Shown in pieces: positions 16,183 through 54,356 of a stretch of DNA of 54,356 nucleotides. The position numbers were made by a program, and so were the translations under genes. A model generated the notes under the pieces. It had not been told where the DNA came from and ran no database searches. It saw nothing but the letters and a program-made list of their open reading frames with translations. The stretch's first letter is position 1. The number at the start of each line of letters is the position of its first letter. The stretch is taken from the NCBI GenBank assembly GCA_964615725.1, contig CAZTPW010000004.1, positions 1 through 54,356 of the forward strand, read 5' to 3'. The DNA comes from an uncultured Candidatus Saccharibacteria bacterium (GTDB taxonomy: Bacteria; Patescibacteriota; Minisyncoccia; Phycocordibacterales; CAZTPW01).

Positions 16183-16297
16183 TCCCTTATCCACATTGAA
16201 AAGGGCTTGCAAAGAATTTTTGGTTTGGTAATAATAGTGAATCCGAAGATTTTTAGCTTACGGAAAAGAAGACTAATTCTTTTTGAATATCGAATCC

Positions 16298-16546
16298 ATG
16301 CCTAAAAAACCCGCAAAAAAAGTTACGAAGAAATCTGCGCCAGCTCCAAAGAAGCAGCCGGAAAAGAAAATCAAACGCCAAGAAGAAGTTACCGACGAGC
16401 AGGACAACCTGATTCCAAAAGCATTGATGGATGATGAAGAAGAGTCTGCTGATATCGCTGAAGTAGACCCAGAAATCCTCGAGAGCGCCCTTGAGGATGA
16501 TGACTTCTCACCAGATATGGACGAAGAGGATGGTGATGAGTGGTAG
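16298..16546 (+). CDS. Small protein with basic N-terminus and acidic C-terminus (82 aa)
   Basis: MPKKPAKKVTKK... then a D/E-rich tail ending DEEDGDEW; followed by a terminator. Confidence 0.75.
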   Translation: MPKKPAKKVTKKSAPAPKKQPEKKIKRQEEVTDEQDNLIPKALMDDEEESADIAEVDPEILESALEDDDFSPDMDEEDGDEW

Positions 16547-39586: not shown

Positions 39587-39999
39587 AACGAACCATACTC
39601 CTAGCAATTTTAATGAGCGCCGCGCTTATCACAGGAGCGTTCATCGCAAGTAAAAAGACGCAAGCACAAAGCGCAAGCGGCCTAAGGGCTTTTGGTGGGC
39701 AGATCACAAACACACAGTATTGCTGTAACGGAATTATTTTGACAGTATCTGGTCAATATGGCGGCGAATTTTTTATCGACTATGCAAGTATTGCAATACC
39801 AACAATCAATTACGCAAACTACCAAGTTTACTATGGCCAAAGTCAGTACACACTCGGAAATGCATCATCTGGCGGGGTGTGCGTTACCACGAGCTCTGAG
39901 TGCGAGAGTTCACAGACTGTTTCGGGTGGAAATATTGTTCAAATCGGAACAGGATATCCAGGTGGAAGCTCAGGGGGTGGTGATGGCGGAGGAAATTAG
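39583..39999 (+). CDS. Small secreted Cys-containing protein
   Basis: Signal peptide; FGGQI...CC...GGVC...C; Gly-rich tail. Confidence 0.78.
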   Translation: MKRTILLAILMSAALITGAFIASKKTQAQSASGLRAFGGQITNTQYCCNGIILTVSGQYGGEFFIDYASIAIPTINYANYQVYYGQSQYTLGNASSGGVCVTTSSECESSQTVSGGNIVQIGTGYPGGSSGGGDGGGN

Positions 40000-40793
40000 G
40001 CTTTTTGTGTGAGGAAATGATAGATTGATCCCCATTGCTCGACCGAAACTTCTTCAGGTCGAGTGTTTTTGTGGGTTTTTGTTGCAACAAAGAACGCTTC
40101 CCGCTTTTCTTGGGCCACTTCAAGGTTTTGACAGAGTACTTTACGCTTATGAGCAAAACCCTTTCGAAGCATCGCAAAAAATGTTTCCTCGTCAATTTCT
40201 TTGAAAAAGATTTTTGAAATATTTTCAATGAGGAGAATTGCAGAGTCTACTTTTGGCGCAGGTGCAAAATATTTTGCGGGAACTTTTTCTATGTATTTCG
40301 GATTACCATATACTTTTACACTGATTGACAGGAGGCTCTCTTTTTTATCTGAGGCCACAATACGTTGCGCTACCTCTTTTTGTACCATAAGGACCATTCG
40401 TTTTGGCTGAATGGTTTCTGAAAGAAAGCGACGGATGATAAGCCCGGTAATGTAGTATGGAATATTTGCGACCAGGGTGTATTCTCCTTGCTTTAGGCCG
40501 AGGTTGGGTGGATCAATTTCGAGGATATCACCATGAACGATCTCAAGTTTTTTATTTTGAAGGGCTTGTGCAAACTTTTCTGTGAGAAATGGGATCATGC
40601 GATCGTCCTTTTCTACAACAAGAGTTTTTGCGGAGTGTTCTATTAAACCTTCTGTGAGAATTCCCTTTCCCGGACCAATTTCAAGTGCAATGTCATTTTC
40701 TGACAAACTTGCAGTCTGAATAATGGTACGTACGGCACCTTTTGATTTGAGGAAATTTTGGCCGAGAGATTTTTTCGCGTAGAGGTGGTCCAT
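39996..40793 (-). CDS. rsmA: 16S rRNA m6,2A dimethyltransferase
   Basis: AKKSLGQNFL, LEIGPGKG, ANIPYYIT, MVQKEVA, PAPKVDS. Confidence 0.97.
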   Translation of the reverse strand: MDHLYAKKSLGQNFLKSKGAVRTIIQTASLSENDIALEIGPGKGILTEGLIEHSAKTLVVEKDDRMIPFLTEKFAQALQNKKLEIVHGDILEIDPPNLGLKQGEYTLVANIPYYITGLIIRRFLSETIQPKRMVLMVQKEVAQRIVASDKKESLLSISVKVYGNPKYIEKVPAKYFAPAPKVDSAILLIENISKIFFKEIDEETFFAMLRKGFAHKRKVLCQNLEVAQEKREAFFVATKTHKNTRPEEVSVEQWGSIYHFLTQKA

Positions 40794-42749
40794 TTAATCA
40801 AAGAAAATGAGTCGTTCCTTACCCTTGTATTCACCAGTATCGTGGAGGAGGTGCTCCGAAAGGTTTTCATCAATATCCCCAAGGAATTCTGATGGAATGT
40901 TCATTCTTCGTGAGCCAAATATAGTACGAATACCAGCGTAGGTCAAAAAGAGTCGTTTTTTTGCGCGCGTTACCGCCACATAGAAAAGTCGTCGCTCCTC
41001 CTCAGCCTCTTCTTGGCTTAGTGAATTTTCATCAAGCCTTTTGTGTGGGAAAAGGTCTTCCTCGAGGCCAGTAATGAAAACATATTCGAATTCAAGACCT
41101 TTTGATGCGTGAATCGTCATAAGGCGCGCGGCATCACGCTTTTCCTCGAGCTCATCTTGATCGGATTGGAGGGCAGCTTCTTCAAGAAGCTTTTCGATAC
41201 CCTGAGGTGCTGGGAGAAGGTCGTATTTTGTAGCAAGGGTCACAAGCTCTTGGAGGTTTTCAATTCGTTCAAGGTCTTCTTCGGTTCCCGACTCTTTGAA
41301 ACTTCGTTCAATGCCCGATGCCCGCATAGCATAAAGAACAACCGATGAGGTTTTTTCTTCTTGTGCAAGTCTTTTGATTTCGCTGAGAATTGTATAAAAG
41401 GAAGAGATTTTGTCTCGGGTGGCACCGGTTATCTGGTCCTTTTGACCGCTGAAAAGTTTTACGATAGTTACCTTCCCAATTCCACGCGCAGGAGTGTTGA
41501 TGATGCGCTTGATATCCGTGAGAGATTCTGGGTTGAGTGCAGCGCGAATGTATGAAAGGACATCCTTCACTTCCTTTCTCTCGAAGAACTTTGTACCGAG
41601 AAGCTGGTAAGGAACATTTTGAGAGAGAAATGCTTCTTCAAGGACGCGCGACTGGAAGTTTGCTCGATAGAGCACGGCAATTTCCTGTGGTCGTACCCCA
41701 GAAGCAATAAGCTCTTTTGTTTTTGTAGCAATAAAGTGTGCCTCAGAACCCTCATCGTATCCTTCAAAAATACCAATCTTCTCCCCTTGCCCGTTATGTG
41801 TGAAGAGGTTTTTTTCTCGGCGCTTCTTGTTTTTCTTGATAATGGTGTTTGCTGTGGTGAGGATGGTTTGGGTCGATCGATAATTTTCCTCGAGGGTTAT
41901 TACCTTTGCATCGGGATAATCTTTTTCGAAATCCAGAATGTTCTTGATATCAGCACCACGCCAGCTGTAGATGTTTTGATCGATATCCCCCACTACGCAA
42001 ATAGCCCGGTTTTTTTCTGCGAGCAGTTTTGCGATCATATACTGGACTTTGTTGGTGTCCTGATACTCATCAATGTGAATGTAGTCCCAAGTATTTTGGT
42101 AGTGCTCGAGGATTTCTTTGTGGTCGCGAAGCAGGAGTGCTGTTTTAAGGAGAAGGTCGTCAAAATCCATCGCCTGCTCCCGGCGCAAGGTCGCCTCATA
42201 TTTTTTCCAGATGCTTGAAACAATGTTTGAAAAGTATTCGGAATTCGTAAGGGATTCAAATTTTTCGACACTAACCATATTTCCCTTCTCGCGAGAGATG
42301 ACGCGAAGGATTTTTGCGGGTTCAAACTGCTTTGGGTCGAGCCCCGAGTCAACAATTGCTTCCTTAATTGCGCGGAGCGAGTCGTTCCTATCATAGAGTG
42401 AGAAGTGTCGGGTGAGGCCGAAGATTCGCGCATTTTCCTTGAGAATATGCATACCAAGTGAGTGAAAGGTGCTTACAAATGGGCGCTCATGGAAGCTGAT
42501 CGGATTTTGTAGGCTTGTGTCGTGTTCAATGAGATGGGCAATACGCTCACGCATTTCCTTAGCGGCTTTGTTGGTAAAGGTGATCGCTAGGATTTTTTGC
42601 GGCGCCACTCCTTGGTGGATAAGGTGGAGTATTCGGTGGGTAACCGTCTTTGTCTTGCCTGCCCCAGCCCCTGCCAATATCAAAAGCGGCCCTGACAAGG
42701 TGATAACCGCTTCTTTTTGAGCGTTATTGAGTGAATCGAGGTAATTCAT
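40794..42749 (-). CDS. pcrA: UvrD/PcrA superfamily 1 helicase
   Basis: AGAGAGKT, TFTNKAA, DEYQDTN, VGDIDQ, ENYRS, TIHASKGLEF, EERRLFYVAVTRA. Confidence 0.95.
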   Translation of the reverse strand: MNYLDSLNNAQKEAVITLSGPLLILAGAGAGKTKTVTHRILHLIHQGVAPQKILAITFTNKAAKEMRERIAHLIEHDTSLQNPISFHERPFVSTFHSLGMHILKENARIFGLTRHFSLYDRNDSLRAIKEAIVDSGLDPKQFEPAKILRVISREKGNMVSVEKFESLTNSEYFSNIVSSIWKKYEATLRREQAMDFDDLLLKTALLLRDHKEILEHYQNTWDYIHIDEYQDTNKVQYMIAKLLAEKNRAICVVGDIDQNIYSWRGADIKNILDFEKDYPDAKVITLEENYRSTQTILTTANTIIKKNKKRREKNLFTHNGQGEKIGIFEGYDEGSEAHFIATKTKELIASGVRPQEIAVLYRANFQSRVLEEAFLSQNVPYQLLGTKFFERKEVKDVLSYIRAALNPESLTDIKRIINTPARGIGKVTIVKLFSGQKDQITGATRDKISSFYTILSEIKRLAQEEKTSSVVLYAMRASGIERSFKESGTEEDLERIENLQELVTLATKYDLLPAPQGIEKLLEEAALQSDQDELEEKRDAARLMTIHASKGLEFEYVFITGLEEDLFPHKRLDENSLSQEEAEEERRLFYVAVTRAKKRLFLTYAGIRTIFGSRRMNIPSEFLGDIDENLSEHLLHDTGEYKGKERLIFFD

Positions 42750-42867
42750 TGACACTACTATAGCATGTAAACACTATCCCCATCTTTTCCCCACTACCGT
42801 TGACTTTAAAACCCTGTGGGCTAAACTTTACTGGCTCCTCTTTTTCTAGGGGTTGGTGACAGTAAAT

Positions 42868-43989
42868 ATGGCTCAACAGAGCCATTCTATGGACAGAAAC
42901 GCTAAAAAACCTAATACTAGCAACGCTTTTTCGGAATTCAATCGAATCCCAACAAAAAGTGTCCATCACCCTTCCCTTCGGGTTGTTATGTCTATGGCTC
43001 TATTGAGCCTTATTTTGGTGTCTTCTCCAGTGAAGGCGGCACAATTTAGCTTCTTTTCAGATCTTTTGGCTGCAAATGGTGAGGCTATGGAAATCGACAC
43101 CCGGGTCAATTCTCAGAATATGCCGCTCTTGACAGCTACCCCAAATCCTTCTCTAGCATCAAAGCGTACGAGCGAAGCCACCTATATTTCAGGTAATTCC
43201 CTAGCGGTGGTGACCGGCCCGCTTGGGACGATGAGTGATGTTGAGGAATACCCGTGGAACCACCAGATTACTTTCTATACTGTTCGCGAGAATGATACCC
43301 TCTCTGGAATTGCTGAGATGTTTGATGTCTCGGTAAGTACCATTTTAATGGCAAACGATATCGATAAGGGTATCAAAAAGGGCGGCGTGCTCGTTATTTT
43401 GCCTGTCTCGGGTGTACTCCATACAATTAAGGCAGGAGATACTATCAAATCGATCGCTGCGAAATATAAGATTGATGAAGATGAAATCCTCTCTTTCAAC
43501 GATCTCGATAAAAGCTCGAAACTTACTCCCGGTACAACTATTACTATTCCCGATGCTGACCTTGCCCAAACGGCTCCTAAGACCCAAAAGCGAACCAGTG
43601 TATCTCGCCCACTGGTAAAGGGATCAGCCTCAGGTCCATATATACCAGGGTATTTTATTAAACCTGTAGCGGGTGTCCGTACTCAAGGCCTTCACGGACG
43701 AAATGCGGTAGATATTGGTGCTCCAATAAGTTCACCTATCTGGGCAGCGGCTGATGGAACGGTTGTTGTTGCAAAACGTGCTGGTTGGAACAATACCTAT
43801 GGTAATTATGTTGTAATTTCACACCCAAACAACACACAAACCCTCTATGCGCACATGTCAAAGGTAAATGTTTCTGTGGGCGATGAGGTGTTCCAGGGCG
43901 ACACAATCGGGTATGTCGGTATGACTGGACATACAACCGGGCCGCATGTTCATTTTGAAGTATTGAACGCCGCGAATCCGTTTAGATAA
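42868..43989 (+). CDS. LysM-domain M23 peptidase
   Basis: Two LysM repeats; HGRNAVDIGA (HxxxD) and HVHFE; promoter TTGACT-16-TAAACT at 42800-42827. Confidence 0.92.
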   Translation: MAQQSHSMDRNAKKPNTSNAFSEFNRIPTKSVHHPSLRVVMSMALLSLILVSSPVKAAQFSFFSDLLAANGEAMEIDTRVNSQNMPLLTATPNPSLASKRTSEATYISGNSLAVVTGPLGTMSDVEEYPWNHQITFYTVRENDTLSGIAEMFDVSVSTILMANDIDKGIKKGGVLVILPVSGVLHTIKAGDTIKSIAAKYKIDEDEILSFNDLDKSSKLTPGTTITIPDADLAQTAPKTQKRTSVSRPLVKGSASGPYIPGYFIKPVAGVRTQGLHGRNAVDIGAPISSPIWAAADGTVVVAKRAGWNNTYGNYVVISHPNNTQTLYAHMSKVNVSVGDEVFQGDTIGYVGMTGHTTGPHVHFEVLNAANPFR

Positions 43990-45435
43990 TTACCAGCGAT
44001 CCCTCTCGTGCAGTTCCACCGCTTCCTTGAGGTGGTGGTTTTTAATTTCCTCAGATTGCTCCAAGTCAGCAATAGCCCGCGCTATTTTTATAACGGAGAT
44101 ACGAGAGCGTTCGGACAGGTGATGTTTTCCTGATGAAAACAAGGCTTCAATACGAGGATCTTGTCTGTCTATCGAGGATAAATGGTGTAGTCTGCGCTGT
44201 GCAAATACCCGAGCGGCGGTAACTTTTTGCCGTACCTCTATCGAGCTCTCAGGACCACCTTTATGCTTATCTTCAGTATCACTAACCTTAAGTACAAGGT
44301 CAATTCTATCGAGAATAGGTCCCGAAATTTTCCGTAAGTATTTTTTGACACTGTTGTTGGGACATATGCATCGCCTTGTCTCTGATTGATAATAGCCACA
44401 AGGACAAGGATTCATTGTTGCGCAGAGAATAAAATTTCTCCCCGCCCCTGACCCCTTTACTGGATCGAGAGGCTCGCGCATACTCTCGAGTACTCTTCGG
44501 TCAAATTCTGGAAATTCATCTAAAATCAAAATACCGTGATTGGTAAGATCAATTTCACCAATTCTTCCTTGGCTATTTCCCATGATCGCCGCATATGATG
44601 CGGTGTGGTGCGGGTATCGCTTCGGTGGCCTGTTGGGTGTTGGTGGTGGGATCTGGGAGCGTGAATACATAGAGCAGACCATGTTGTAGTGATCCTTTGG
44701 TAAATCAGGTAATATTTCAGCAAAGCAGTGAGCTAAAAAGCTTTTTCCAACACCCGGCTCGCCCCAGAGCAAAACATGGAGATTCCCTACCGCAGCAATC
44801 ATAAGGGCTCGCTTTTCGTAATTCTTCCCCTGGATCTTTTTGAAATCATAGAACTTTTCATGCACCAAGGGTAAAAAATCCCTCTCAACCTCACCTGTGT
44901 GATGGGGTAGAACTTTTTCACCATTGAGATGCTGCACAACTTCACTAAGATGGGAGACGAGATAGATCTCGGTATTTTGGAGGGTGCCTATATCAGCCTT
45001 ATTTTCACGAGGTATGTACGCAACACATCTTTTTTGAGAAGATATTTTTTCAAGAATGGAGAATACGTTTGGAACTTTTCGAATCTTCCCATCGAGTGAT
45101 AACTCACCAAGAAACACCTTCCCCTCGACATTGCCACGAATCTCTGAAGCTGCTCTCAGGTACCCTACTGCAAGAGCTAAATCAAAACCCGATCCTTCTT
45201 TACGGATAGCGGACGGTAGTAATGAAATGGTGATTTTATGATTGTGGGTTTTGGGAGAGCGGAAGCCGGAGTTTTTTATTGCAGATGAAACTCGCTCCCT
45301 CGCTTCATGAACACCCTTATCGACCATACCAACGATTGAAAACATATGAAGTCCTCGACTTATGTCGGTCTCAATCTCAATAATATGAACCCCATCTCTA
45401 CTAGCCTGACCACTCAAAAGTTTTGAGAACTTCAT
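43990..45435 (-). CDS. comM: YifB/ComM Mg-chelatase-like AAA+ ATPase
   Basis: GLHMFSIVG, EARERV, GELSLDG, GEPGVGKS, PHHTAS, LDEFPEF, NPCPCG, ISGPILDRID. Confidence 0.88.
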   Translation of the reverse strand: MKFSKLLSGQASRDGVHIIEIETDISRGLHMFSIVGMVDKGVHEARERVSSAIKNSGFRSPKTHNHKITISLLPSAIRKEGSGFDLALAVGYLRAASEIRGNVEGKVFLGELSLDGKIRKVPNVFSILEKISSQKRCVAYIPRENKADIGTLQNTEIYLVSHLSEVVQHLNGEKVLPHHTGEVERDFLPLVHEKFYDFKKIQGKNYEKRALMIAAVGNLHVLLWGEPGVGKSFLAHCFAEILPDLPKDHYNMVCSMYSRSQIPPPTPNRPPKRYPHHTASYAAIMGNSQGRIGEIDLTNHGILILDEFPEFDRRVLESMREPLDPVKGSGAGRNFILCATMNPCPCGYYQSETRRCICPNNSVKKYLRKISGPILDRIDLVLKVSDTEDKHKGGPESSIEVRQKVTAARVFAQRRLHHLSSIDRQDPRIEALFSSGKHHLSERSRISVIKIARAIADLEQSEEIKNHHLKEAVELHERDRW

Positions 45436-45494
45436 GAGATAAGTGTAGCGAATCACGCATCAAAGCTTTTTCAAAGCAAAATCAATTTTTTCTC

Positions 45495-45530
45495 AAAAAA
45501 AGATAAACCCCTCATAAAGAGGGGTTTATC
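45495..45530 (-). terminator. Intrinsic terminator
   Basis: GATAAACCCCTC-ATAAA-GAGGGGTTTATC 12-bp stem plus minus-strand T-run. Confidence 0.8.
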
Positions 45531-47112
45531 GTGTGATTCTTGCTTTAATAATTCGATCGAGCACTTCCTTAAAGGTAGTTTCGTTTGTTGTTATCACGAT
45601 CGTACTCGAATCGATTACTGAGTAAAGAAGGATGATTTGACCAGCACCATTTCGGACAACACGCACCTCTTTATTTTTTATAACAGCATCCTGGAATTCA
45701 TAGCGTGTACCAGACGCGGACACTTGTGAGGTTCCTACAACACGATCCTCAGGTTTGAAGAAGATATTTTGAAGATCAAAAATCATCGTCTTCTCCCATG
45801 AAATCATTCCTGCATACGAAGTTTCATAATCTCGAGACCTAAGGACGAGTATTGAGTTTAAGAGACCTGTATTGTGAACACCAAAAAAGAATTTTGGTTC
45901 AAGTACCCGTATGAGTGAAGGCGAAATGTTTTTGTTGAGTGATGTGAGGAGCTCTTGGAGAGAAAGCTCAGATTTTTTTGATGAGTCTTTAAATATTCGA
46001 AGTTGCTCAATTCCTTGAAGAGAAATCTTTGAATTTTCAGACTCACTTCTCATTGTGCCACTGAGAACATCTTTCGATAGTGCTTCGGTAACAATCTGTC
46101 GAGACCCATCAACTGAGAAGAAGAGATTCTCTTGTTCTTGACGAACTTCTACGACCTGTACCTGTTTTTTGTAGAAGCCGTAGTAGTACGCAACTCCTGC
46201 CCCACCACCGATCAAGACAATACTAAGAAGGATAAGAAATATATTTCTCAATGTACTCATTTTCCTCTGACTCGCCATCTCTATTTCCATTTTTTCCTGA
46301 GCCCTTCTCTGTGATTCTGCCATTGAAATCTGGGTAAGGTTGATATGATCACGCGTAACCGAATCACCTACATCACTTGTATAGGTGTGGATTGGGCTGA
46401 GGGTGTTGTCACGTGGGGTGGTGTCTTGTGTAGGCGGTGGCGTCGGTACAACACTTTGGGATTCAATGAAGGGGTTGGTCGTGATGGTTGGTGCCTGGCG
46501 AGGTGCTTGAAATGACGCGGTTGGTGCGGGTTTTGGTGGTGGAGGAACGGGAATTGTCGAAACTTTTGGTGGTGGGGGTACCGGAATCGAAGACGCGACA
46601 CTTCTTAATGGCTGTATTGGCTGCGGAGCGGTTTGTACTTTAGAAATTGGCTGAGCACTTGGTGTTGGGTCTTTTGGCAAAGAATTGAGAAAAGACCTGA
46701 GATTGTTGTTGGGATTGAGTGGTGGGTAGTTGGTGATTTTGGGAGGGGTTGGCACTACAGGTGCTTTGTTGATGAAAGATGATCTCTGGATGGTCGACGA
46801 AGGGGTGTTCTGAGGTTGTGGAGCAGGAGAGGGCGTTGGTGCGGGTTTGGGAACGGGAGGCACTATTTTTTGTGGAGCGGCGAACGACGGAGAAACACTT
46901 CCTGAAAAGTTTGGCTTTGGTGTACTCAGTGGTTGGAGTGGTTTTGGTGGTATTGGTGTCGCTGTTTTGTTTTCCTTCAATCCCTTCAAAATCTTTTCCA
47001 AAGGAATAGAAACTTCCGCAGAACTGCCCTGCTGGGCGTCGTTCATGTCATCGAGATAGGTATGGATTTTTTTTGCCCCCTGCGGTGCCGCAGGAGTATT
47101 TCCATCAGTCAT
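45526..47112 (-). CDS. Single-pass membrane protein with long Pro-rich cytoplasmic N-terminus
   Basis: About 230 aa of Pro-rich low-complexity sequence, a TM segment, then an extracellular alpha/beta domain. Confidence 0.82.
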   Translation of the reverse strand: MTDGNTPAAPQGAKKIHTYLDDMNDAQQGSSAEVSIPLEKILKGLKENKTATPIPPKPLQPLSTPKPNFSGSVSPSFAAPQKIVPPVPKPAPTPSPAPQPQNTPSSTIQRSSFINKAPVVPTPPKITNYPPLNPNNNLRSFLNSLPKDPTPSAQPISKVQTAPQPIQPLRSVASSIPVPPPPKVSTIPVPPPPKPAPTASFQAPRQAPTITTNPFIESQSVVPTPPPTQDTTPRDNTLSPIHTYTSDVGDSVTRDHINLTQISMAESQRRAQEKMEIEMASQRKMSTLRNIFLILLSIVLIGGGAGVAYYYGFYKKQVQVVEVRQEQENLFFSVDGSRQIVTEALSKDVLSGTMRSESENSKISLQGIEQLRIFKDSSKKSELSLQELLTSLNKNISPSLIRVLEPKFFFGVHNTGLLNSILVLRSRDYETSYAGMISWEKTMIFDLQNIFFKPEDRVVGTSQVSASGTRYEFQDAVIKNKEVRVVRNGAGQIILLYSVIDSSTIVITTNETTFKEVLDRIIKARITR

Positions 47113-47115
47113 AGC

Positions 47116-49239
47116 TTAAGCTTTTTTAATAAAATTCGGATCGCGCTCTTTAATCGAGAGGTTGATTCGATTTTTTTCATCGATCTCTTTTATTATAACA
47201 GGAACTTTATCGCCGACATGAAGGTAGTCACCGATTGCTTCAATACGAAATGGTGCAATTTCTGAAATATGAACAAGTCCCTCAGTGGTGTCACTAATTT
47301 TTACAAAGGCACCAAAGTCGAGGATTTTTGTGACCACACCCTCATAAATCTCACCCTTTTCGTATGTATGGGTAAGGGATTGAATTATTGCTTCAGCACG
47401 TTTCGGTCCACCATCCTGCCCCGTTATGTAAATAATACCATCGTCATGAACATCGATGTTATCAACGCCAGTTTTTTCTGTGATCATGCGAATGGTTTTT
47501 CCGTTTGGACCAATGACCGAAGCAATCTGGTCCTGCTTAATACTCATGCGGACAATTTCTGGAGCATTCGGTGAAATGTGTGGGCGTGGCGCTGGAATAG
47601 TTTTTTCAATAACATCGAGAATTTTCTTTCGCCCAATAAGTGCTTTTTCAAATGCAACACTCAAGACTGATAGTGGAATACCTGAGACTTTGATATCCAT
47701 CTGAATCGCCGTGATGCCGTCGCGCGTACCCGCAACCTTGAAGTCCATATCGCCGTAATGATCCTCTGGGCCTTGTATGTCAGTGAGTATCACAAAATGC
47801 TCAGGCGATTCGATCATTACGCCCGATGAAATTCCTGCTACGGGTTTTTTAATGGGCACTCCTCCGTCCATAAGTGCCAGTGTGCTGCCGCATACTGAGG
47901 CCATTGATGTTGAACCGTTTGATGAGAAAGCTTCAGAAACGAGTCTAATAGTATAGGGAAAATCATTTTGAGAAGGTAAAACTGGAATCAGTGCTTTTTC
48001 AGCGAGTGCACCATGTCCAATCATGCGACGATTTGTACCACCAAGTTTACCCGTTTCACCGGTCGAAAAAGGTGGAAAATTGTAATGGTGAATGTAATGC
48101 TTCCCTTTTGAGTCTTGAGGTGCGTCTTCAGTGACGAGGGTGTCTTGCGGGCTACCAAGGGTAAGTGCTGTGAAAATATGTGTTTCACCTCTGAAGAAAA
48201 TTCCGGATCCATGAAGTACGCTCGAAACACCACCAGCTTGTGCGTAGAGTTCTCGAATATCATCTACTCCCCTACCATCGACACGTTTTTTGTTTCGAAT
48301 TACTTGATCATGAATAAAGGCATTGACTCTATCCTCAAAGAGAAATGCATGAGCTTCGCGATGAACATTTTCAGGGCGGCCGTCTTTGTAATGGGTGTGA
48401 ACGAGATCGCCCCACACTGTTTTAAGTTTTTGGATCCCCTCATCGCCCGACGTTTTTGTGAGGAGCGTTTGGGGCATGATTGGTGAAATTTCTTTTTCAA
48501 AAAGATCCAAAAGATCCTGCGGAGTATTCGGTCTTGCGAGAGCTCGCTTTTTGGGGGCGATACGATTAAAAATGTCCTTCTGGAATTTTTGAATTTTTTC
48601 AATTATCAAACTTGCTTCTTTGAGAGCGTTGAGCGCGACGTCTTCTTTAATTTCACGCGCAGCGCATTCAATCATTGTGATGTTGCCATCCTTTCCACAT
48701 ACAGTAAACTCAAACCCGTCAGGAAAATCCCCATGACCACGATCAGGGTTGATCACATAAGGCGTTTGCGTCCCTCCGGATATTTTTACTGAAGATACGG
48801 GGCCATTCCAAGGAATGTGAGATGTACCAAGCGCAAGAGAAGCTGCTATGACACCCAACGCATCGACATCCTCACTCCCCACGGCAAGGGTGGTAACCAC
48901 AACCTGAATTTCATTTCTGATCCACTGATCAAAGAGTGGTCGAATTGTTCGGTCAATAATTCTTCCTGAGAGAATTGCTTTTTCAGAAGGTTTTCCTTCA
49001 CGGCGCATAAAACGCGAACCGAGAATTTTCCCAAGCGCATAGTAACGTTCCTCAAATTCTACGGTAAGTGGAAGAAAATCGATGCCCTCTTTTTCTGTCT
49101 CGGACATTGTTGCAGTAGCAAGGAGAACTGTCTCGCCATATTTCACCATGACCGAACCTTGGGCGCGCTGTGCAAGATTGGTAAATGATGCGGTAAGCGT
49201 CTTCCCCCCTATCTCCATAGAGAAATCTTGAGTGTGCAT
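47116..49239 (-). CDS. pnp: Polyribonucleotide nucleotidyltransferase
   Basis: RPLF, RGET, HHYNFPPFS, SNGSTSMAS, GDMDFKVAG, KH and S1 domains. Confidence 0.98.
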   Translation of the reverse strand: MHTQDFSMEIGGKTLTASFTNLAQRAQGSVMVKYGETVLLATATMSETEKEGIDFLPLTVEFEERYYALGKILGSRFMRREGKPSEKAILSGRIIDRTIRPLFDQWIRNEIQVVVTTLAVGSEDVDALGVIAASLALGTSHIPWNGPVSSVKISGGTQTPYVINPDRGHGDFPDGFEFTVCGKDGNITMIECAAREIKEDVALNALKEASLIIEKIQKFQKDIFNRIAPKKRALARPNTPQDLLDLFEKEISPIMPQTLLTKTSGDEGIQKLKTVWGDLVHTHYKDGRPENVHREAHAFLFEDRVNAFIHDQVIRNKKRVDGRGVDDIRELYAQAGGVSSVLHGSGIFFRGETHIFTALTLGSPQDTLVTEDAPQDSKGKHYIHHYNFPPFSTGETGKLGGTNRRMIGHGALAEKALIPVLPSQNDFPYTIRLVSEAFSSNGSTSMASVCGSTLALMDGGVPIKKPVAGISSGVMIESPEHFVILTDIQGPEDHYGDMDFKVAGTRDGITAIQMDIKVSGIPLSVLSVAFEKALIGRKKILDVIEKTIPAPRPHISPNAPEIVRMSIKQDQIASVIGPNGKTIRMITEKTGVDNIDVHDDGIIYITGQDGGPKRAEAIIQSLTHTYEKGEIYEGVVTKILDFGAFVKISDTTEGLVHISEIAPFRIEAIGDYLHVGDKVPVIIKEIDEKNRINLSIKERDPNFIKKA

Positions 49240-49295
49240 GTGTCTATTGTAACAAAAAACTCCTCCGCGAGGAATTCGGGAAGAGTTTTATGTGT

Positions 49296-49883
49296 TTATG
49301 CGATCGGATTTTCTGGTGTGACCGGTTTCTGGGGTCGTCGGTGGCGGTTTCGCGGATTGTTTGATCGGCCAAAGCCATTTCCAATGAGGTACTTTTGTGG
49401 GTTTGCATCGAGGTCGATGAACTCATCAGCTGCTTCCTTAAGCATTCCCGAAGCGGACTTACCAAAAGTAACCACTTCTACCTGACAACCCTCGTGGGTC
49501 TGGAGGTATTTAACCAATGGCACGAAGTCACCATCCCCTGTTACAAGGATAATTGCATCGAGTTTTGGAGCCAAGGTGATGGCGTCAACCGCCATTCCAA
49601 CATCCCAGTCGGCCTTTTTTGCTCCTCCAGCGAATACTTGGAGGTCTTTGGTCTTTGCCTCGATGCCCATTTTTGTAAGAGCCTCGAAAAATGCCGTCTC
49701 ATCCCCTGCTTCCGTAGTAATTACGTAGGCAATAGCTCGAATAAGTGCCCGACCTGCGAGGGCATCTTTCAAGATTTGACCAAAATTTACTCGAGAATGG
49801 TAGAGATTTTTTGCTGTGTGATAAAGGTTTTGAGTGTCGATATAGATACCAACACGCTGTTCTTTGTGTTTAATAACTGTCAT
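49296..49883 (-). CDS. NYN/LabA (DUF88) PIN-like domain protein
   Basis: IYIDTQN, KKADWDV, VTGDGDFVP, ADEFID. Confidence 0.92.
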   Translation of the reverse strand: MTVIKHKEQRVGIYIDTQNLYHTAKNLYHSRVNFGQILKDALAGRALIRAIAYVITTEAGDETAFFEALTKMGIEAKTKDLQVFAGGAKKADWDVGMAVDAITLAPKLDAIILVTGDGDFVPLVKYLQTHEGCQVEVVTFGKSASGMLKEAADEFIDLDANPQKYLIGNGFGRSNNPRNRHRRPQKPVTPENPIA

Positions 49884-51315: not shown

Positions 51316-51342
51316 TTTGGGCTTTTTGTGTACAATTGTCAC

Positions 51343-52110
51343 ATGAATATTGTTTCGTGGAACGTAAATGGGCTCCGCGCCGTATTGCGAAAAGGCTCAT
51401 TTGACTGGCTACTCAAAGCAAAGCCCGACATTATCTGCCTTCAGGAGACAAAGTGCCAAAGTGACCAACTCCCCCCAGAAATTGCTTCTATTCCAGGCTA
51501 TCACTGCTACTATTCATGGCCGAAGGTGAAAAAGGGATACAGTGGTGTTGCTCTTTTTTCAAAAGTTAAGCCGGAAAAGGTTGAATATGGTATGGCGCAA
51601 GAAGATTTTGATGCTGAGGGGCGCATGATTGTGGCCTATTTTAAGGATTTTGTACTCATTAACTGTTATTTTCCAAATGGCGGCGGCGGTCCAGAAAGAC
51701 TAGAGTTTAAGCTTAATTTCTACGATCATTTTCTCCATTTCATTACTACACTTCGAAAAAAGGGCCACAATGTTATGTTTTGTGGTGATATTAACACTGC
51801 TCACCATGAGATTGACCTCGCGCGCCCAAAGGAAAATGAAAAGAACACGGGTTTTTTGCCAGTAGAGCGAGAGTGGATGGATCAGCTCGTAAATAATGCC
51901 TTTATTGATGTATACAGACATTTCCATCCAACTAAAAAAGATGTCTATACGTATTGGGACATGAAAACCTTTGCGCGATCACGTAATGTTGGTTGGAGAA
52001 TCGACTACTTTTTTTGCGCTCATAATCTCATTTCTAAAATTCGAGAGATAAAAATATTAAGCACAATCGAGGGTTCTGATCACTGCCCAATTGAGCTCAC
52101 TCTGAAATAA
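51343..52110 (+). CDS. xth: Exodeoxyribonuclease III
   Basis: IVSWNVNGLRA, LQETK, YSGVA, EGR, YFPNG, GDINTAH, GWRIDY, GSDHCP. Confidence 0.96.
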   Translation: MNIVSWNVNGLRAVLRKGSFDWLLKAKPDIICLQETKCQSDQLPPEIASIPGYHCYYSWPKVKKGYSGVALFSKVKPEKVEYGMAQEDFDAEGRMIVAYFKDFVLINCYFPNGGGGPERLEFKLNFYDHFLHFITTLRKKGHNVMFCGDINTAHHEIDLARPKENEKNTGFLPVEREWMDQLVNNAFIDVYRHFHPTKKDVYTYWDMKTFARSRNVGWRIDYFFCAHNLISKIREIKILSTIEGSDHCPIELTLK

Positions 52111-52164
52111 GGCCTATAAGAAGGGCTTTTAGACATGACTTTTATGTCTTTTAGAATGTCCGAG

Positions 52165-52211
52165 TTATCCACAGGAAATGTCCTTTACGTGTCTTTTATG
52201 TACGATATACT
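52165..52211 (+). promoter_or_regulatory. Perfect DnaA box plus sigma70 promoter
   Basis: TTATCCACA at 52165-52173; TTTACG-16-TATACT at 52184-52211. Confidence 0.55.
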
Positions 52212-52218
52212 ATTCACA

Positions 52219-52512
52219 GGTCAGTAGCGACCGTGCAAAAAAATTCACGACGGCAAGGTACCAAGGAATCCTTCGTCGAAAGAAATAAAAACAAAAAAAC
52301 GCACAACGCGAGAAACTGACAGATCTTTCCCACAATTTAACGAGGTGCTCATAACAAATCTCGTAGTTCGCGCAGCCACACGGTGAACGTGTCGGTATTA
52401 AAAAATCTTTTTCGTGCTTCGTAAGCACAAGCAAAACCATCATTAGTTCTTTTCGTTCCCAATAGGCTCGCGCAAGAAGGCCTGACCCACTCTCCATTGG
52501 TCGGCCTTTTTT
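52219..52512 (+). ncRNA. Unidentified ~290-nt structured ncRNA
   Basis: Promoter upstream; ends pair (GGTCAG/CTGACC); at least five internal helices; intrinsic terminator at 52477-52512; no ORF longer than ~30 aa on this strand. Confidence 0.55.
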
Positions 52513-52559
52513 ATTTTCCTATATTTTTTGTCTCAACTCCCCTTTCTCAAACGAAAAGT

Positions 52560-54089
52560 CTATTTTACCCAGTGCTTCTTGCGAATTTCTTCAATGTCTT
52601 GCTCCTCAGCAAGTTCTTTTTTTTCTTTACCAGATTCACCAAGCTTCTTTAGCGCACTTTCAGAGAGATTTATGAGCTCTTGTGCCCTACCCTCGAGGTA
52701 CTCATGGGTGTTGAGCTTCGGATTTTCGAGAACTTCCTCAAGAAGTGCATGCAATATGAAGCCGATCTTCGGACCTGGGGCGAGGTTGAGCTTTTGGATG
52801 AGTGTATTTCCGTCAATTTTGAGCATTCCGACGCTGATTGGGTCCCGGAGCGCCTCTTCTATCATTGAGCGGTATTTGCGAAGCCTATAAGGGTTTTCTT
52901 TTGGTCTACCAGTGCCTATTCTGTCGCAGGTACGTACGTCGAGGAGGTCCCAGATATTCTCCTTCCCTACATTCACGATCATTCTCCGCACCGCAGAGAG
53001 TGTAATCTGCTCGGTATCAGCAAAAAACATATGCCACCGCACCATGGTGACGACTTTTTTTGTAAGATCCTGAGGATATTTGAGTCTCTCAAGGATCTTT
53101 TTTGTCATTTTTGCCCCCACCACCTCATGTCCGTAGAAGGTGAATTCACCATTCTTCCCCGTTCGGCGTGTTGCTGGCTTAGCAATATCATGAAAAAGCG
53201 CTGTAAGTCTTACATCAAGCCCCCACCCCTTGTCGGCGGCGTGCTGTACTGAGCGTAAAAGATGTTCCCATACATGAAAAGCGTGAGCTTGGTTCTGCTC
53301 TACCCCAAGCGCCTCAAGAAGCTCTGGAACAATATGACCCAAAATACCCAATTCATGGCTCAAAATAAGGCCTTTCATGGGTTCTGGAGACAAAAGGATC
53401 TTGCTAAACTCATCTCGAATTCGCTCCCAAGATATCTTTTCGATCAGGGGTGCATTTTCAATAATCGCACGTCGTGTATCGGGTTCGATGGTGAGATTAT
53501 GCTCCGTGGCAAGACGAACTGCTCTCATAAGGCGCAAAGCATCTTCCTTAAAGCGTTCATCGGGATTCCCAACGGCTCGTAAAATCTTGTTTTTGAGGTC
53601 TTTTTGTCCCCCAAACTGATCGATAAGCTTACATACGCAGATATTCCCTGTTTTACGTGAAACACTCAAGGCAAGGGTGTTGATTGTGAAATCTCGTCGC
53701 TTTAGATCCTCGTCGATCGTTTTGCTAAATATCACCTCATCAGGGCGTCGATTATCAGAGTATTTTGCTTCTCGTCGAAATGGGGTAACCTCCACCACTT
53801 TAAGACTTGGATCATCCGACTCCTCCCCTTTTTCAGATAGAGGCACAACACCAACGGTCCCAAACTTGTTTTCATAGAAAGTCTTTGGAAAAAGAGCAAT
53901 AATCTGCTCTGGAGTGGCGTCGGTCGTAATATCCCAATCTTTTGGCTTTTTACCGGTGATTAGATCACGAACACATCCCCCAACAAGAAAGGCCTGAAAA
54001 CCTGATTTCACAAGGGTTTCTGCCGTTGTGAGCACCCCTTCAGGGATTTGCATCTCGTATTCTTTTTCTTCTGAGAGAATGGTAGACAT
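52560..54089 (-). CDS. cca: CCA tRNA nucleotidyltransferase with HD domain
   Basis: VGGCVRD, DWDITT, RRDFTIN, EDALRLMRA, ERIRDE, LFHDIAK. Confidence 0.93.
   Translation of the reverse strand: MSTILSEEKEYEMQIPEGVLTTAETLVKSGFQAFLVGGCVRDLITGKKPKDWDITTDATPEQIIALFPKTFYENKFGTVGVVPLSEKGEESDDPSLKVVEVTPFRREAKYSDNRRPDEVIFSKTIDEDLKRRDFTINTLALSVSRKTGNICVCKLIDQFGGQKDLKNKILRAVGNPDERFKEDALRLMRAVRLATEHNLTIEPDTRRAIIENAPLIEKISWERIRDEFSKILLSPEPMKGLILSHELGILGHIVPELLEALGVEQNQAHAFHVWEHLLRSVQHAADKGWGLDVRLTALFHDIAKPATRRTGKNGEFTFYGHEVVGAKMTKKILERLKYPQDLTKKVVTMVRWHMFFADTEQITLSAVRRMIVNVGKENIWDLLDVRTCDRIGTGRPKENPYRLRKYRSMIEEALRDPISVGMLKIDGNTLIQKLNLAPGPKIGFILHALLEEVLENPKLNTHEYLEGRAQELINLSESALKKLGESGKEKKELAEEQDIEEIRKKHWVK
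53649..53664. other. parS site within cca
   Basis: TGTTTTACGTGAAACA, 15/16 to the consensus TGTTTCACGTGAAACA; translates as VSRKT in Cca. Confidence 0.6.
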
Positions 54090-54148: not shown

Positions 54149-54220
54149 GCTCCTGTGGTGAAATGGATATCACAACGGTCTTCGGAACCGTTATTCCAGG
54201 TTCGAGTCCTGGCGGGAGCA
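54149..54220 (+). tRNA. tRNA-Arg(UCG)
   Basis: Acceptor GCTCCTG/CGGGAGC-A, anticodon arm ACGGT-CTTCGGA-ACCGT, T-loop TTCGAGT; CCA not encoded. Confidence 0.93.
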
Positions 54221-54294
54221 CAGATTAGATTTCTTTCGAGCAGCCATCTCTTTGGATTTGGAGTTTTTTTGCTATCGTGTATAATGTTTGCAAC

Positions 54295-54356
54295 GCGGTC
54301 ATGGTTTAGTGGTAGAACACGACCTTGCCAAGGTTGAGATGGGAGTTCGATTCTCC
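54295..54356 (+). tRNA. tRNA-Gly(GCC), truncated by the window end
   Basis: GCGGTCATGGTTTAGTGGTAGAAC, anticodon loop TTGCCAA, T-arm GGGAGTTCGATTCTCC; TATAAT at 54280-54285. Confidence 0.9.

What the first reader, a model, noticed from the sequence alone, without database searches (positions are those of the whole stretch)
52165..52512. Unidentified ~290-nt stand-alone structured RNA gene with a DnaA box at its promoter
Seen: in a 450-bp gap between convergent xth and cca there is a perfect DnaA box, a promoter (TTTACG-16-TATACT) and a transcript starting near 52218. Helices: GGTCAG/CTGACC (52219-24/52482-87); CGACG/CGTCG (52248-52/52274-78) with inner AAGG/CCTT; ACGAGGT/ATCTCGT (52340-46/52358-64); GCGCAGCC/GGCT(C)GCGC (52370-77/52465-73) enclosing ACACG/CGTGT and GTGCTT/AAGCAC. 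An A-rich linker and a terminator (52477-52512) complete it. The 5' GTCAGT can instead pair with ACTGAC (52314-19) or locally, and the terminator competes with the end-to-end helix. It lacks the hallmarks of tmRNA, RNase P, SRP, T-box and group I/II introns, and no gene lies downstream on its strand. A 28-codon GTG ORF (MQKNSRRQGTKESFVERNKNKKTHNARN) is embedded. Inference: a novel large CPR ncRNA with conformational switching, possibly DnaA/cell-cycle regulated.
Basis: partly seen in the sequence, partly recalled or inferred. Interest (0 to 1): 0.72.

Follow-up and report, generated by a model that had tools for sequence, protein, structure and literature searches.

The report
Conserved boxA-bearing RNA gene, Paceibacteria
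The gap between the xth and cca genes holds a real, separately transcribed gene for a ~295-base folded RNA. The gene sits at this spot in most Paceibacteria (tiny uncultured bacteria) and matches no catalogued RNA family. It has a promoter with a phase-locked DnaA site and, in the RNA, a motif like the boxA signal of ribosomal RNA operons; its function is unknown.

Summary

By itself the fold is unremarkable (z = -1.7). The comparative evidence is what makes the case.
- The same promoter-to-terminator unit lies in the xth-cca gap of about 50 of 58 related genomes, in either orientation.
- It also lies beside cca and/or xth in 51 of 53 metagenome loci that were fetched by the promoter motif alone.
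- A strain about 95% identical keeps promoter plus RNA at 2.3% divergence, against 11-18% in the flanking spacers. Its indels break the 28-codon ORF.

No Rfam family matches the window or 40 homologous loci, even at loose thresholds.

The family shares the following:
- a DnaA box set 4-6 or 14-16 nt from the -35 region, never in between;
- TGTCCTTTA words over the promoter;
- a 5' hairpin domain;
- an invariant GUUCUUU followed by an A-rich run, which fits the boxA consensus (the window has GAUCUUUCC);
- a fast-evolving structured body with covarying helices;
- an intrinsic terminator.

Short metatranscriptome contigs lie inside two homologues.

Best reading: a DnaA-gated stable ncRNA that loads Nus factors.

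The parts
52136..52153 (+). Two upstream operator-like words, TGACTTTTA (52136-44) and TGTCTTTTA (52145-53)
   Evidence: Read from the sequence. The word search clusters its matches here. The words are unchanged in strains X2 and X3 while the neighbouring spacer bases vary.
52165..52173 (+). Perfect DnaA box TTATCCACA, at -53 to -45 from the inferred start and 6 nt from GTCC
   Evidence: Found. It is present in the same orientation upstream of the homologous promoter in at least 37 of 80 relatives. The spacing is bimodal, 4-6 or 14-16 nt, with none between.
52179..52198 (+). TGTCCTTTA (52179-87) and TGTCTTTTA (52190-98), words that overlap the -35 hexamer and the spacer
   Evidence: The motif ATGTCCTTTACATGTCTTTTAT is nearly invariant in relatives. 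It shows no change in strains X2 and X3.
52184..52211 (+). Sigma-70-type promoter: TTTACG (-35), 16-nt spacer, TATACT (-10)
   Evidence: A homologous -35 and -10 are found in about 50 relatives.
52218..52512 (+). The inferred ~295-nt non-coding transcript, from the start at A52218 (conserved CAGR context) to the terminator U-run
   Evidence: The start is inferred from the -10 hexamer and the conserved CAG(A/G) in relatives. Promoter plus RNA (52160-52512) differ by 2.3% in strain X2, against 18% and 11% in the flanking spacers. There are no RNA-seq data for this copy.
52220..52320 (+). 5' hairpin domain, closed by GUCAGU (52220-25) / ACUGAC (52315-20); it holds the hairpin 52248-52278 (loop UACCAAGGAAU) and an A-rich linker
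   Evidence: Present in the MFE and centroid folds. A closed 5' domain just before the motif occurs in 64% of 123 family members, against 26% of shuffles. The loop ACC(G/A)AGGA is shared with the group A relatives.
52322..52330 (+). boxA-like motif GAUCUUUCC, a variant of the family's GUUCUUU plus A-run
   Evidence: GTTCTTT in 102 and GATCTTT in 9 of 140 motif hits among the 145 members; the motif lies a median 54 nt after the -10 hexamer. The published boxA consensus is GYTCTTTAANA (PMC5725501). In strain X2 the site reads GAUCUUUUCU.
52340..52364 (+). Hairpin ACGAGGU / AUCUCGU
   Evidence: Unchanged in strain X2.
52370..52473 (+). 3' domain closed by GCGCAGCC / GGCU(C)GCGC, with the inner hairpin GUGCUU/AAGCAC and a second GUUCUUU at 52446-52452
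   Evidence: No strain X2 changes fall inside it. Other family members also carry a second GUUCUUU.
52474..52512 (+). Intrinsic terminator: AAGAAGGCC(U)GACC, an 11-nt loop, GGUCGGCCUUUUUU
   Evidence: Equivalent terminators end the homologous RNAs.

Best explanation
Window 52136-52512 is a self-contained gene for a ~295-nt non-coding RNA. It belongs to a family that occupies the xth-cca gap across Paceibacteria.

Shown:
- The unit is conserved in position, promoter, 5' architecture and terminator.
- It is autonomous: its orientation flips between lineages.
- Both the RNA and the promoter are under purifying selection.
- Helices covary within subgroups.
- Homologues appear as short contigs in metatranscriptomes.
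- No Rfam family matches.

Inferred mechanism:
- Transcription starts near 52218 from a sigma-70-type promoter.
- The promoter's activity is set by DnaA, bound to a box kept on one face of the helix, and by an unknown protein that reads the TGTCYTTTA words over the -35 hexamer and the spacer.
- The nascent RNA first folds a 5' hairpin domain and then exposes a boxA-like motif (family GUUCUUU plus A-run; here GAUCUUUCC).
- NusB-S10 and the other Nus factors bind that motif, as on rRNA leaders.
- This makes RNA polymerase resistant to premature (Rho-type) termination on the untranslated transcript, and may help the transcript fold, until the intrinsic terminator at 52474-52512.

The released RNA is a stable structured molecule that acts in trans. 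Its body evolves fast, so its role probably depends on the conserved 5' module and on general structure rather than on a specific body sequence.
For: Conservation and autonomy:
- Synteny is conserved and the promoter is nearly invariant.
- The gene is inverted within the same gap in 13 loci.
- Of 53 loci fetched by the promoter motif alone, 51 lie beside cca and/or xth.

Strain X2:
- Divergence is 2.3% across 52160-52512, against 18% and 11% in the spacers.
- Seven of the eight changes fall at unpaired positions.

No known family:
- Rfam gives no match in the window or in 40 homologous loci.
- ARAGORN finds no tmRNA.

The boxA-like motif:
- GUUCUUU is exact in 102 of 145 members and is followed by an A-rich run. 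This fits the boxA consensus GYTCTTTAANA (PMC5725501).
- The E. coli boxA, GCTCTTTAACAA, was verified about 100 nt upstream of the 16S gene.
- In 122 kb of non-coding DNA from relatives, about 20 of the 26 strict matches lie inside this gene.

Structure and expression:
- A closed 5' hairpin domain precedes the motif in 64% of members, against 26% of shuffles; mean z = -2.95.
- DnaA-box spacing is 4-6 or 14-16 nt only.
- In an 11-member subgroup, 12 pairs show changes on both sides, against 6.2 +/- 1.4 in shuffles (0 of 500 shuffles as high) and 1-5 in the slid controls.
- Metatranscriptome contigs of 65-308 nt lie inside the RNA genes of L095 and L097.
Against: - There is no transcript evidence for the window's own copy. 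Metatranscriptome contigs can also contain DNA.
- The window's motif departs from the boxA consensus at position 2 (A instead of a pyrimidine) and lacks the AA that follows. Only 9 of the 140 motif hits share GATCTTT.
- The window's RNA body has no detectable sequence similarity to any homologue. Its family membership therefore rests on position, promoter, 5' architecture and terminator.
- Binding by NusB-S10, DnaA or any other factor is untested.
- I could not check whether this genome has nusB or rho, or which boxA its own rRNA leaders use.
- Predicted accessibility of the motif is no higher than background.
- The window fold is only marginally better than shuffles.
Confidence: 0.6

Rival explanations
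1. Nus-factor decoy, or 'empty pre-rRNA'. On this reading the RNA's function is the boxA module itself. A stable, abundant, DnaA-gated RNA binds NusB-S10 (and perhaps other rRNA-leader-binding factors) and so tunes rRNA transcription or ribosome assembly to the state of replication.
For: - Only the promoter, the 5' hairpin, the boxA-like motif and the terminator are conserved across the family, while the body is replaced freely.
- Several members carry two boxA copies in tandem (L033, L057, L059, L006). The window has a second GUUCUUU at 52446.
- From my own knowledge: over-produced boxA RNA is reported to titrate NusB in E. coli.
Against: - The motif is not predicted to be more exposed than background.
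- About a third of members carry a purine-rich partner that could sequester it: 46 of 129, against 20.5 +/- 3.4 in shuffles.
- Covarying body helices are not needed for a simple decoy.
- There are no binding or abundance data.
Confidence: 0.17
2. The act of transcription matters, not the RNA. On this reading the unit is a DnaA-controlled transcription unit next to a replication-origin or centromere hub, like mioC and gidA beside the E. coli oriC. It would modulate local DNA unwinding or supercoiling.
For: - The DnaA box is phase-locked to the promoter.
- Further clusters of DnaA boxes and TGTCCTTTA words lie 0.5-2 kb away, upstream of the tRNA/cca genes, in relatives.
That note is unchecked.
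Against: - Compensatory base changes in RNA helices show selection on the RNA product.
- The RNA sequence is conserved as strongly as coding DNA between strains.
- The gene's orientation flips relative to its neighbours, which a directional effect on an origin would not tolerate easily.
- GC skew in the window is uninformative.
Confidence: 0.07
3. GUUCUUU is not a Nus site. On this reading it is the recognition element for a different protein, or a seed for base pairing with a target RNA, and the RNA is an ordinary trans-acting regulator.
For: - The motif is invariant in sequence and shows no covariation. That fits any sequence-specific reader.
- The window variant, GAUCUUUCC, is a poor boxA.
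Against: - The match extends to the A-rich run that follows, and to the position after a 5' hairpin near the start of an untranslated transcript. That is the rrn-leader arrangement.
- No tRNA among the 227 in the relatives' loci is complementary to the motif.
Confidence: 0.12
4. It is a strongly diverged copy of a universal RNA (RNase P RNA, 6S, SRP RNA or tmRNA), or it is a small protein gene.
For: - CPR RNase P RNAs are known to be diverged and to fall below Rfam thresholds (PMC8172020).
- A 28-codon ORF and a 95-codon antisense ORF exist.
Against: - No hit to any of these families appears at E <= 10 in the window or at E <= 5 in 20 homologues. The diverged CPR RNase P RNAs, by contrast, were still found with RF00010 at lowered thresholds.
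- There is no P4-type motif, no tRNA-like end and no SRP domain IV motif in the sequence.
- The fold is a multi-hairpin shape, not a 6S-like rod.
- Indels in strain X2 shift the ORF frames.
- The antisense ORF has no Pfam hit.
- The hairpin that overlaps a short ORF in subgroup E changes by compensatory pairs, not by conservative codon changes.
Confidence: 0.04

Closest known systems
Leader of bacterial rRNA (rrn) operons: boxB hairpin, boxA (E. coli GCUCUUUAACAA), boxC, read by NusB-S10, NusA, NusG and SuhB (the rrnTAC complex)
   Same: - A strong promoter.
- A 5' hairpin followed within about 50-100 nt by GYUCUUU plus an A-rich run.
- An untranslated, highly structured transcript.
   Different: - No rRNA, and no other gene, follows. 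The unit ends at its own terminator after 160-480 nt.
- The promoter carries a DnaA box and TGTCCTTTA words.
- The window's motif is the minority variant GAUCUUUCC.
- No boxC was identified.
boxA elements outside rRNA: the suhB 5' UTR (PMC5725501) and, from my own knowledge, CRISPR-array leaders, where Nus factors counter Rho on untranslated RNA
   Same: A boxA sits near the 5' end of a transcript that is not protected by ribosomes. The proposed role in processivity is the same.
   Different: In those cases boxA serves a downstream gene or array. Here the RNA that carries it is the whole product.
The mioC and gidA transcription units flanking the E. coli oriC, with a DnaA box in the mioC promoter (from my own knowledge)
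   Same: A DnaA box lies at the promoter of a unit whose product has no obvious role.
   Different: Here the RNA is structured, its helices covary, it ends at its own terminator, and its orientation is not fixed. Proximity to an origin has not been shown.
Orphan lineage-specific structured ncRNAs (raiA, OLE, ROOL, GOLLD)
   Same: A stand-alone, conserved, structured RNA that is restricted to one lineage and has no known function.
   Different: Those classes keep a conserved core fold and sequence. This family keeps its promoter and 5' module while the body is replaced between subgroups. None of those Rfam models matches.
6S RNA
   Same: A stand-alone RNA of a few hundred nucleotides, presumably abundant, with a housekeeping-type promoter.
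   Different: There is no rod with a central bubble and no RF00013 hit. Length varies about threefold within the family.

Membership tests
Paceibacteria xth-cca gap RNA (uncatalogued family defined here) | The gene lies in the gap between xth and cca | tested here: met
   In the window, xth is at 51328-52110 (+) and cca at 52560-54089 (-). The same arrangement holds in 58 of 80 relatives. Of 53 loci fetched by the promoter motif alone, 51 lie beside cca and/or xth.
Paceibacteria xth-cca gap RNA (uncatalogued family defined here) | Promoter module: TTATCCACA, then 4-6 or 14-16 nt, then GTCCTTTAC(A/G)TGTCYTTTAT, then a -10 hexamer, then CAGR at the start | tested here: met
   The window has TTATCCACA, 6 nt, GTCCTTTACGTGTCTTTTAT, TATACT and CACAGG. 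blastn of this part gives E-values down to 4e-9 against relatives.
Paceibacteria xth-cca gap RNA (uncatalogued family defined here) | A 5' hairpin domain followed by GUUCUUU plus an A-rich run | tested here: inconclusive
   The closed 5' domain is present at 52220-52320. The motif is the variant GAUCUUUCC, shared by 9 of the 140 motif hits, and is not followed by an A-run.
Paceibacteria xth-cca gap RNA (uncatalogued family defined here) | Sequence or structure similarity of the RNA body to other members | tested here: not met
   blastn and an nhmmer profile built from 30 members find nothing in the window's RNA body. Bodies also differ between subgroups, so body similarity is not a family-wide feature.
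rrn-type boxA antitermination site | Sequence GYUCUUUAANA (the 8-nt core bound by NusB-NusE) | tested here: inconclusive
   The family consensus, wGUUCUUUvAAAAA, fits (against PMC5725501 and PMC3177189). The window's GAUCUUUCC fits at only 6 of the 8 core positions.
rrn-type boxA antitermination site | Binding of NusB-S10 and resistance to termination | not testable with these tools
   This needs biochemistry or reporter assays.
rrn-type boxA antitermination site | Located in the leader or spacer of an rRNA operon | tested here: not met
   There is no rRNA in the window or in any of the 200 loci. The transcript ends at its own terminator.
RNase P RNA (RF00010, RF00011) | A match to the covariance model, and the conserved P4 sequences | tested here: not met
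   There is no hit at E <= 10 in the window or at E <= 5 in 20 homologues. No GAGGAAAGUCC-type motif is present in the sequence.
6S RNA (RF00013) | A rod-like helix with a central bubble, and a model match | tested here: not met
   No Rfam hit. The folds are multi-hairpin.
tmRNA / SRP RNA | A tRNA-like domain with a tag ORF (tmRNA); the domain IV motif (SRP RNA) | tested here: not met
   ARAGORN finds no tmRNA. There is no Rfam hit.

The most novel reading that the evidence does not exclude
The RNA is a DnaA-gated 'empty pre-rRNA'. It would be a stable transcript that carries only the rRNA-leader module (hairpin plus boxA). By binding NusB-S10 and other leader-binding factors, it would couple the replication-initiation status read by DnaA to ribosome synthesis. 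Such a link would matter in bacteria with one rRNA operon and very few regulators. A second, unknown factor that reads TGTCCTTTA would set the promoter's activity together with DnaA.
Probability: 0.15. Interest if true: 0.85.

Novelty: new variant of a known kind. Interest (0 to 1): 0.62.

Why it matters
Paceibacteria are a large, uncultured part of the bacterial tree, with minimal genomes and very few recognisable regulators.

This RNA gene is kept at one locus across the class. Its promoter is better conserved than its product. The replication initiator's binding site is locked in helical phase with that promoter. The RNA itself carries an rRNA-type Nus-loading motif.

Together these features make it a strong candidate for a central growth or replication control element in these organisms.

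The work also gives annotators a concrete new RNA family to add. It gives experimenters three simple, testable interactions: DnaA with its box, the unknown factor with TGTCCTTTA, and NusB-S10 with GUUCUUU.

Tried and rejected
1. Rfam at gathering and at loose thresholds, on the window and on 40 homologous loci: only tRNAs and scattered chance hits.
2. ARAGORN: no tmRNA.
3. blastn of the RNA body against 200 loci, and an nhmmer profile of 30 long-form members against the window: no similarity beyond the promoter.
I therefore could not look in this genome for RNase P, 6S, SRP RNA, tmRNA, nusB, rho or the rRNA leaders.
5. A search for rRNA genes in the fetched loci, to compare boxA sequences: none found.
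6. RNA-seq for the window copy: no run found.
7. Predicted accessibility of the boxA-like motif: no different from background.
8. Hand-inspected ideas that were dropped for lack of consistent support:
   - a kissing interaction between the 5' loop ACCRAGGA and the terminator loop UCUAACCU;
   - pairing of the 5' end with the terminator loop;
   - mimicry of 16S helix 45 by the AACCGC/GCGGUU terminator stem, which is just a typical A-tract, GC stem and U-tract terminator;
   - GATC (Dam-type) sites at the transcription start.
9. Complementarity of GUUCUUU to tRNAs: none in 227 tRNAs.
10. GC skew as a marker of the origin: uninformative.
11. Literature searches for a described CPR RNA of this kind found none. 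A search for Gram-positive boxA strings returned only noise.

Full report
**What is in the window.** The 450-bp gap lies between an exonuclease III-type gene (51328-52110, +; Exo_endo_phos family) and a CCA-adding enzyme gene (52560-54089, -; PolyA_pol plus HD domains).

- TTATCCACA at 52165-73;
- TTTACG-16-TATACT at 52184-52211;
- the listed helices. The only slip is ACTGAC, which is at 52315-20.

The minimum-free-energy (MFE) and centroid folds of 52215-52515 keep five elements:
- the local closure GUCAGU/ACUGAC;
- the 52248-78 hairpin;
- the 52340-64 hairpin;
- the 52370-52473 domain;
- the terminator 52474-52511.

They do not keep the end-to-end helix. The energy is only marginally better than shuffles (z = -1.74), so the fold alone proves little.

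**Not a catalogued RNA.**
- Rfam 15 gives nothing in the gap at gathering thresholds, and only chance-level hits at E <= 10.
- The homologous genes in 20 species representatives and in 20 metagenome loci at E <= 5 give only tRNAs and scattered noise.
- ARAGORN finds no tmRNA.
- CPR RNase P RNAs are known to be diverged, but they were still recovered with RF00010 at lowered thresholds (PMC8172020). Nothing of that kind appears here.

**A class-wide gene.**
- Loci fetched with the cca protein (L001-L080; Parcubacteria/Paceibacteria MAGs with 52-64% identical cca) keep the order xerC-xth-gap-cca in 58 cases.
- About 50 of those gaps contain the same promoter module: GTTATCCACA ... ATGTCCTTTACATGTCTTTTAT ... 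TAnAAT ... CAGA.
- In 13 loci the unit is inverted inside the same gap. It is therefore an autonomous gene, not a leader or trailer of a neighbour.
Of the 53 loci with enough flanking DNA, 35 have both xth and cca within 1.2 kb, 12 have only cca, 4 have only xth and 2 have neither.
- Predicted RNA lengths run from about 160 to 480 nt, with a median near 290. The window's ~295 nt is typical.

**Selection on this copy.** Contigs from a second sample (X2, about 95% identical) show the following divergence:

| Region | Differences | Divergence |
|---|---|---|
| Promoter plus RNA, 52160-52512 | 8 in 353 nt | 2.3% |
| Upstream spacer, 52111-52159 | 9 in 49 nt | 18% |
| Spacer after the terminator, 52513-52559 | 5 in 47 nt | 11% |
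| Flanking coding DNA | | 2-4% |

- Seven of the eight changes fall at positions unpaired in the MFE.
- A 1-nt deletion at 52237 and a 1-nt insertion after 52286 shift the frame of the 28-codon ORF. The same indels shift the 95-codon antisense ORF, which has no Pfam match. Neither ORF is a gene.

**What the family shares.** Across 145 non-redundant members, the RNA bodies fall into many subgroups with no mutual sequence similarity. The window's body matches none of them.

*The promoter.*
- The DnaA box always lies on the RNA's strand.
- Its distance to GTCC is 4-6 or 14-16 nt and never in between. This holds both in the genome sample and in the metagenome sample, where 2-26 nt was allowed. That is one helical turn, and the window has 6 nt.
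- TGTCYTTTA words overlap the -35 hexamer and the spacer. In the window two more copies lie upstream at 52136-53, and the words cluster only here.

*The 5' segment.* The stretch between the transcription start and the motif folds into a closed hairpin domain in 64% of members, against 26% of shuffles, with a mean z of -2.95. The window's GUCAGU/ACUGAC closure is the counterpart.

*The heptamer GUUCUUU.*
- It is exact in 102 members. The variants are GAUCUUU in 9 (including the window), GCUCUUU in 8, GUUCUUC in 8 and GUUCCUU in 7.
- It lies a median 54 nt after the -10 hexamer and is followed by an A-rich run.
- In 122 kb of non-coding DNA from relatives, about 20 of the 26 strict matches lie inside this gene, and none lies in a tRNA leader.

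*The 3' end.* Each member ends in an intrinsic terminator.

**Structure is selected.** In a compact ~200-nt subgroup of 11 sequences:
- the consensus fold has 35 pairs, and 96% of pair-by-sequence cells form a standard base pair;
- 12 pairs change on both sides, against 6.2 +/- 1.4 in shuffles (0 of 500 as high) and 1-5 in the slid controls;
- the small helix that involves GUUCUUU shows no covariation, so the motif is kept for its sequence.

**Reading the motif.** wGUUCUUUvAAAAA fits the published boxA consensus GYTCTTTAANA (PMC5725501). The 8-nt core is the part bound by NusB-NusE (PMC3177189).

As a yardstick, I verified the E. coli sequence TGCTCTTTAACAATTTA. It occurs a median of seven times per genome, and in the one copy I inspected it lies about 100 nt upstream of the 16S gene.

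A hairpin followed by boxA near the start of an untranslated, structured transcript is the rrn-leader arrangement. Earlier notes from this scan on other genomes had proposed the same reading. I treated them as leads and re-derived the motif statistics here.

The window's GAUCUUUCC is a minority variant. For this copy the assignment is weaker.

**Expression.**
- No RNA run holds the window's copy.
- For L097, three metatranscriptomes hold contigs of 177-308 nt that match only a conserved ~100-140-nt stretch of the RNA body.
- For L095, four freshwater metatranscriptomes hold contigs of 65-204 nt inside the RNA gene. One 204-nt contig spans nearly the whole predicted RNA and does not run beyond it.
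- This supports discrete transcripts in relatives. The caveat is that such libraries can contain DNA.

**Function.** What the mature RNA does is not known. The data fit best a stable trans-acting RNA whose conserved business end is the 5' module.
- A NusB-S10 decoy or 'empty pre-rRNA' reading is attractive, because some members carry tandem boxA copies and the bodies are freely replaced.
- It is not favoured by the accessibility analysis, or by the enrichment of purine-rich partners that could sequester the motif.
- A purely transcriptional, mioC-like role is made unlikely by the covariation in the RNA and by the flipping orientation.

**Limits.**
The genome's own RNase P, 6S, SRP RNA and tmRNA genes, its nusB and rho genes and its rRNA leaders could therefore not be examined.
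- No fetched locus contains an rRNA gene.

Noticed in passing
window 16183-16546: The window's only other perfect DnaA box (16187-95) sits in the loop of a small hairpin (CCCTT...AAGGG), about 11 nt upstream of a TTGCAA -35-like hexamer. An 87-codon ORF follows at 16283-16546; its N-terminus is lysine-rich and its C-terminus very acidic.
   Followed up: no
window 52130-52157: A second promoter-like site, TAGACA-16-TAGAAT (10 of 12 matches), lies upstream of the DnaA box. In strains X2 and X3 its -10 hexamer becomes TACAAT or TATAAT, while its -35 hexamer is destroyed in X2. It might be a weak upstream promoter or a chance match.
   Followed up: partly
L033 ~2029, L057 ~3100, L059 ~3085, L006 ~4865 (RNA strand): Some family members carry two boxA-like motifs in tandem, 14-17 nt apart, for example GTTCTTTAGAGAAAATAGTTCTTTGAAG.
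   Followed up: partly
L056 ~2431, L058 ~1096, L061 ~427, L070 ~1537, L045 ~1502; L043/L044/L046/L058 palindromes: In relatives, composites of TGTCCTTTA with two or three DnaA-type boxes (TTATCCACA, TTGTCCACA, TTATCCCCA) lie 0.5-2 kb upstream of cca, near the tRNA genes. Perfect palindromes TGTCCTTTATAAAGGACA occur in other gaps. This points to a widely used but unidentified DNA-binding factor, and possibly to an origin-like region.
   Followed up: no
A1 columns 101-119 (L087, L095, L132, L146, L164, L172, L183, L184): The short subgroup has a covarying hairpin whose 7-nt loop is the conserved, self-complementary CUGAUCA. Two RNA molecules could form a loop-loop dimer through it.
   Followed up: no
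window 54295-54356: Rfam finds a second tRNA that is cut off by the window's end. ARAGORN reports only tRNA-Arg(TCG) at 54149-54221.
   Followed up: no
window 39996-49883: The neighbouring genes are rich in RNA-metabolism functions: KsgA-type rRNA dimethylase (39996-40793), PNPase (47116-49239) and an NYN-domain nuclease (49296-49883). A UvrD-type helicase and a ComM-like ATPase are also present.
   Followed up: partly
L097 14369-14512: A stretch of about 100-140 nt in the long-form RNA body (…GGUCAGUUUCG… plus a hairpin) recurs at 93-98% identity in contigs from three unrelated metatranscriptomes. The flanks of those contigs differ from L097. This stretch is the most conserved part of that subgroup's body.
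   Followed up: partly
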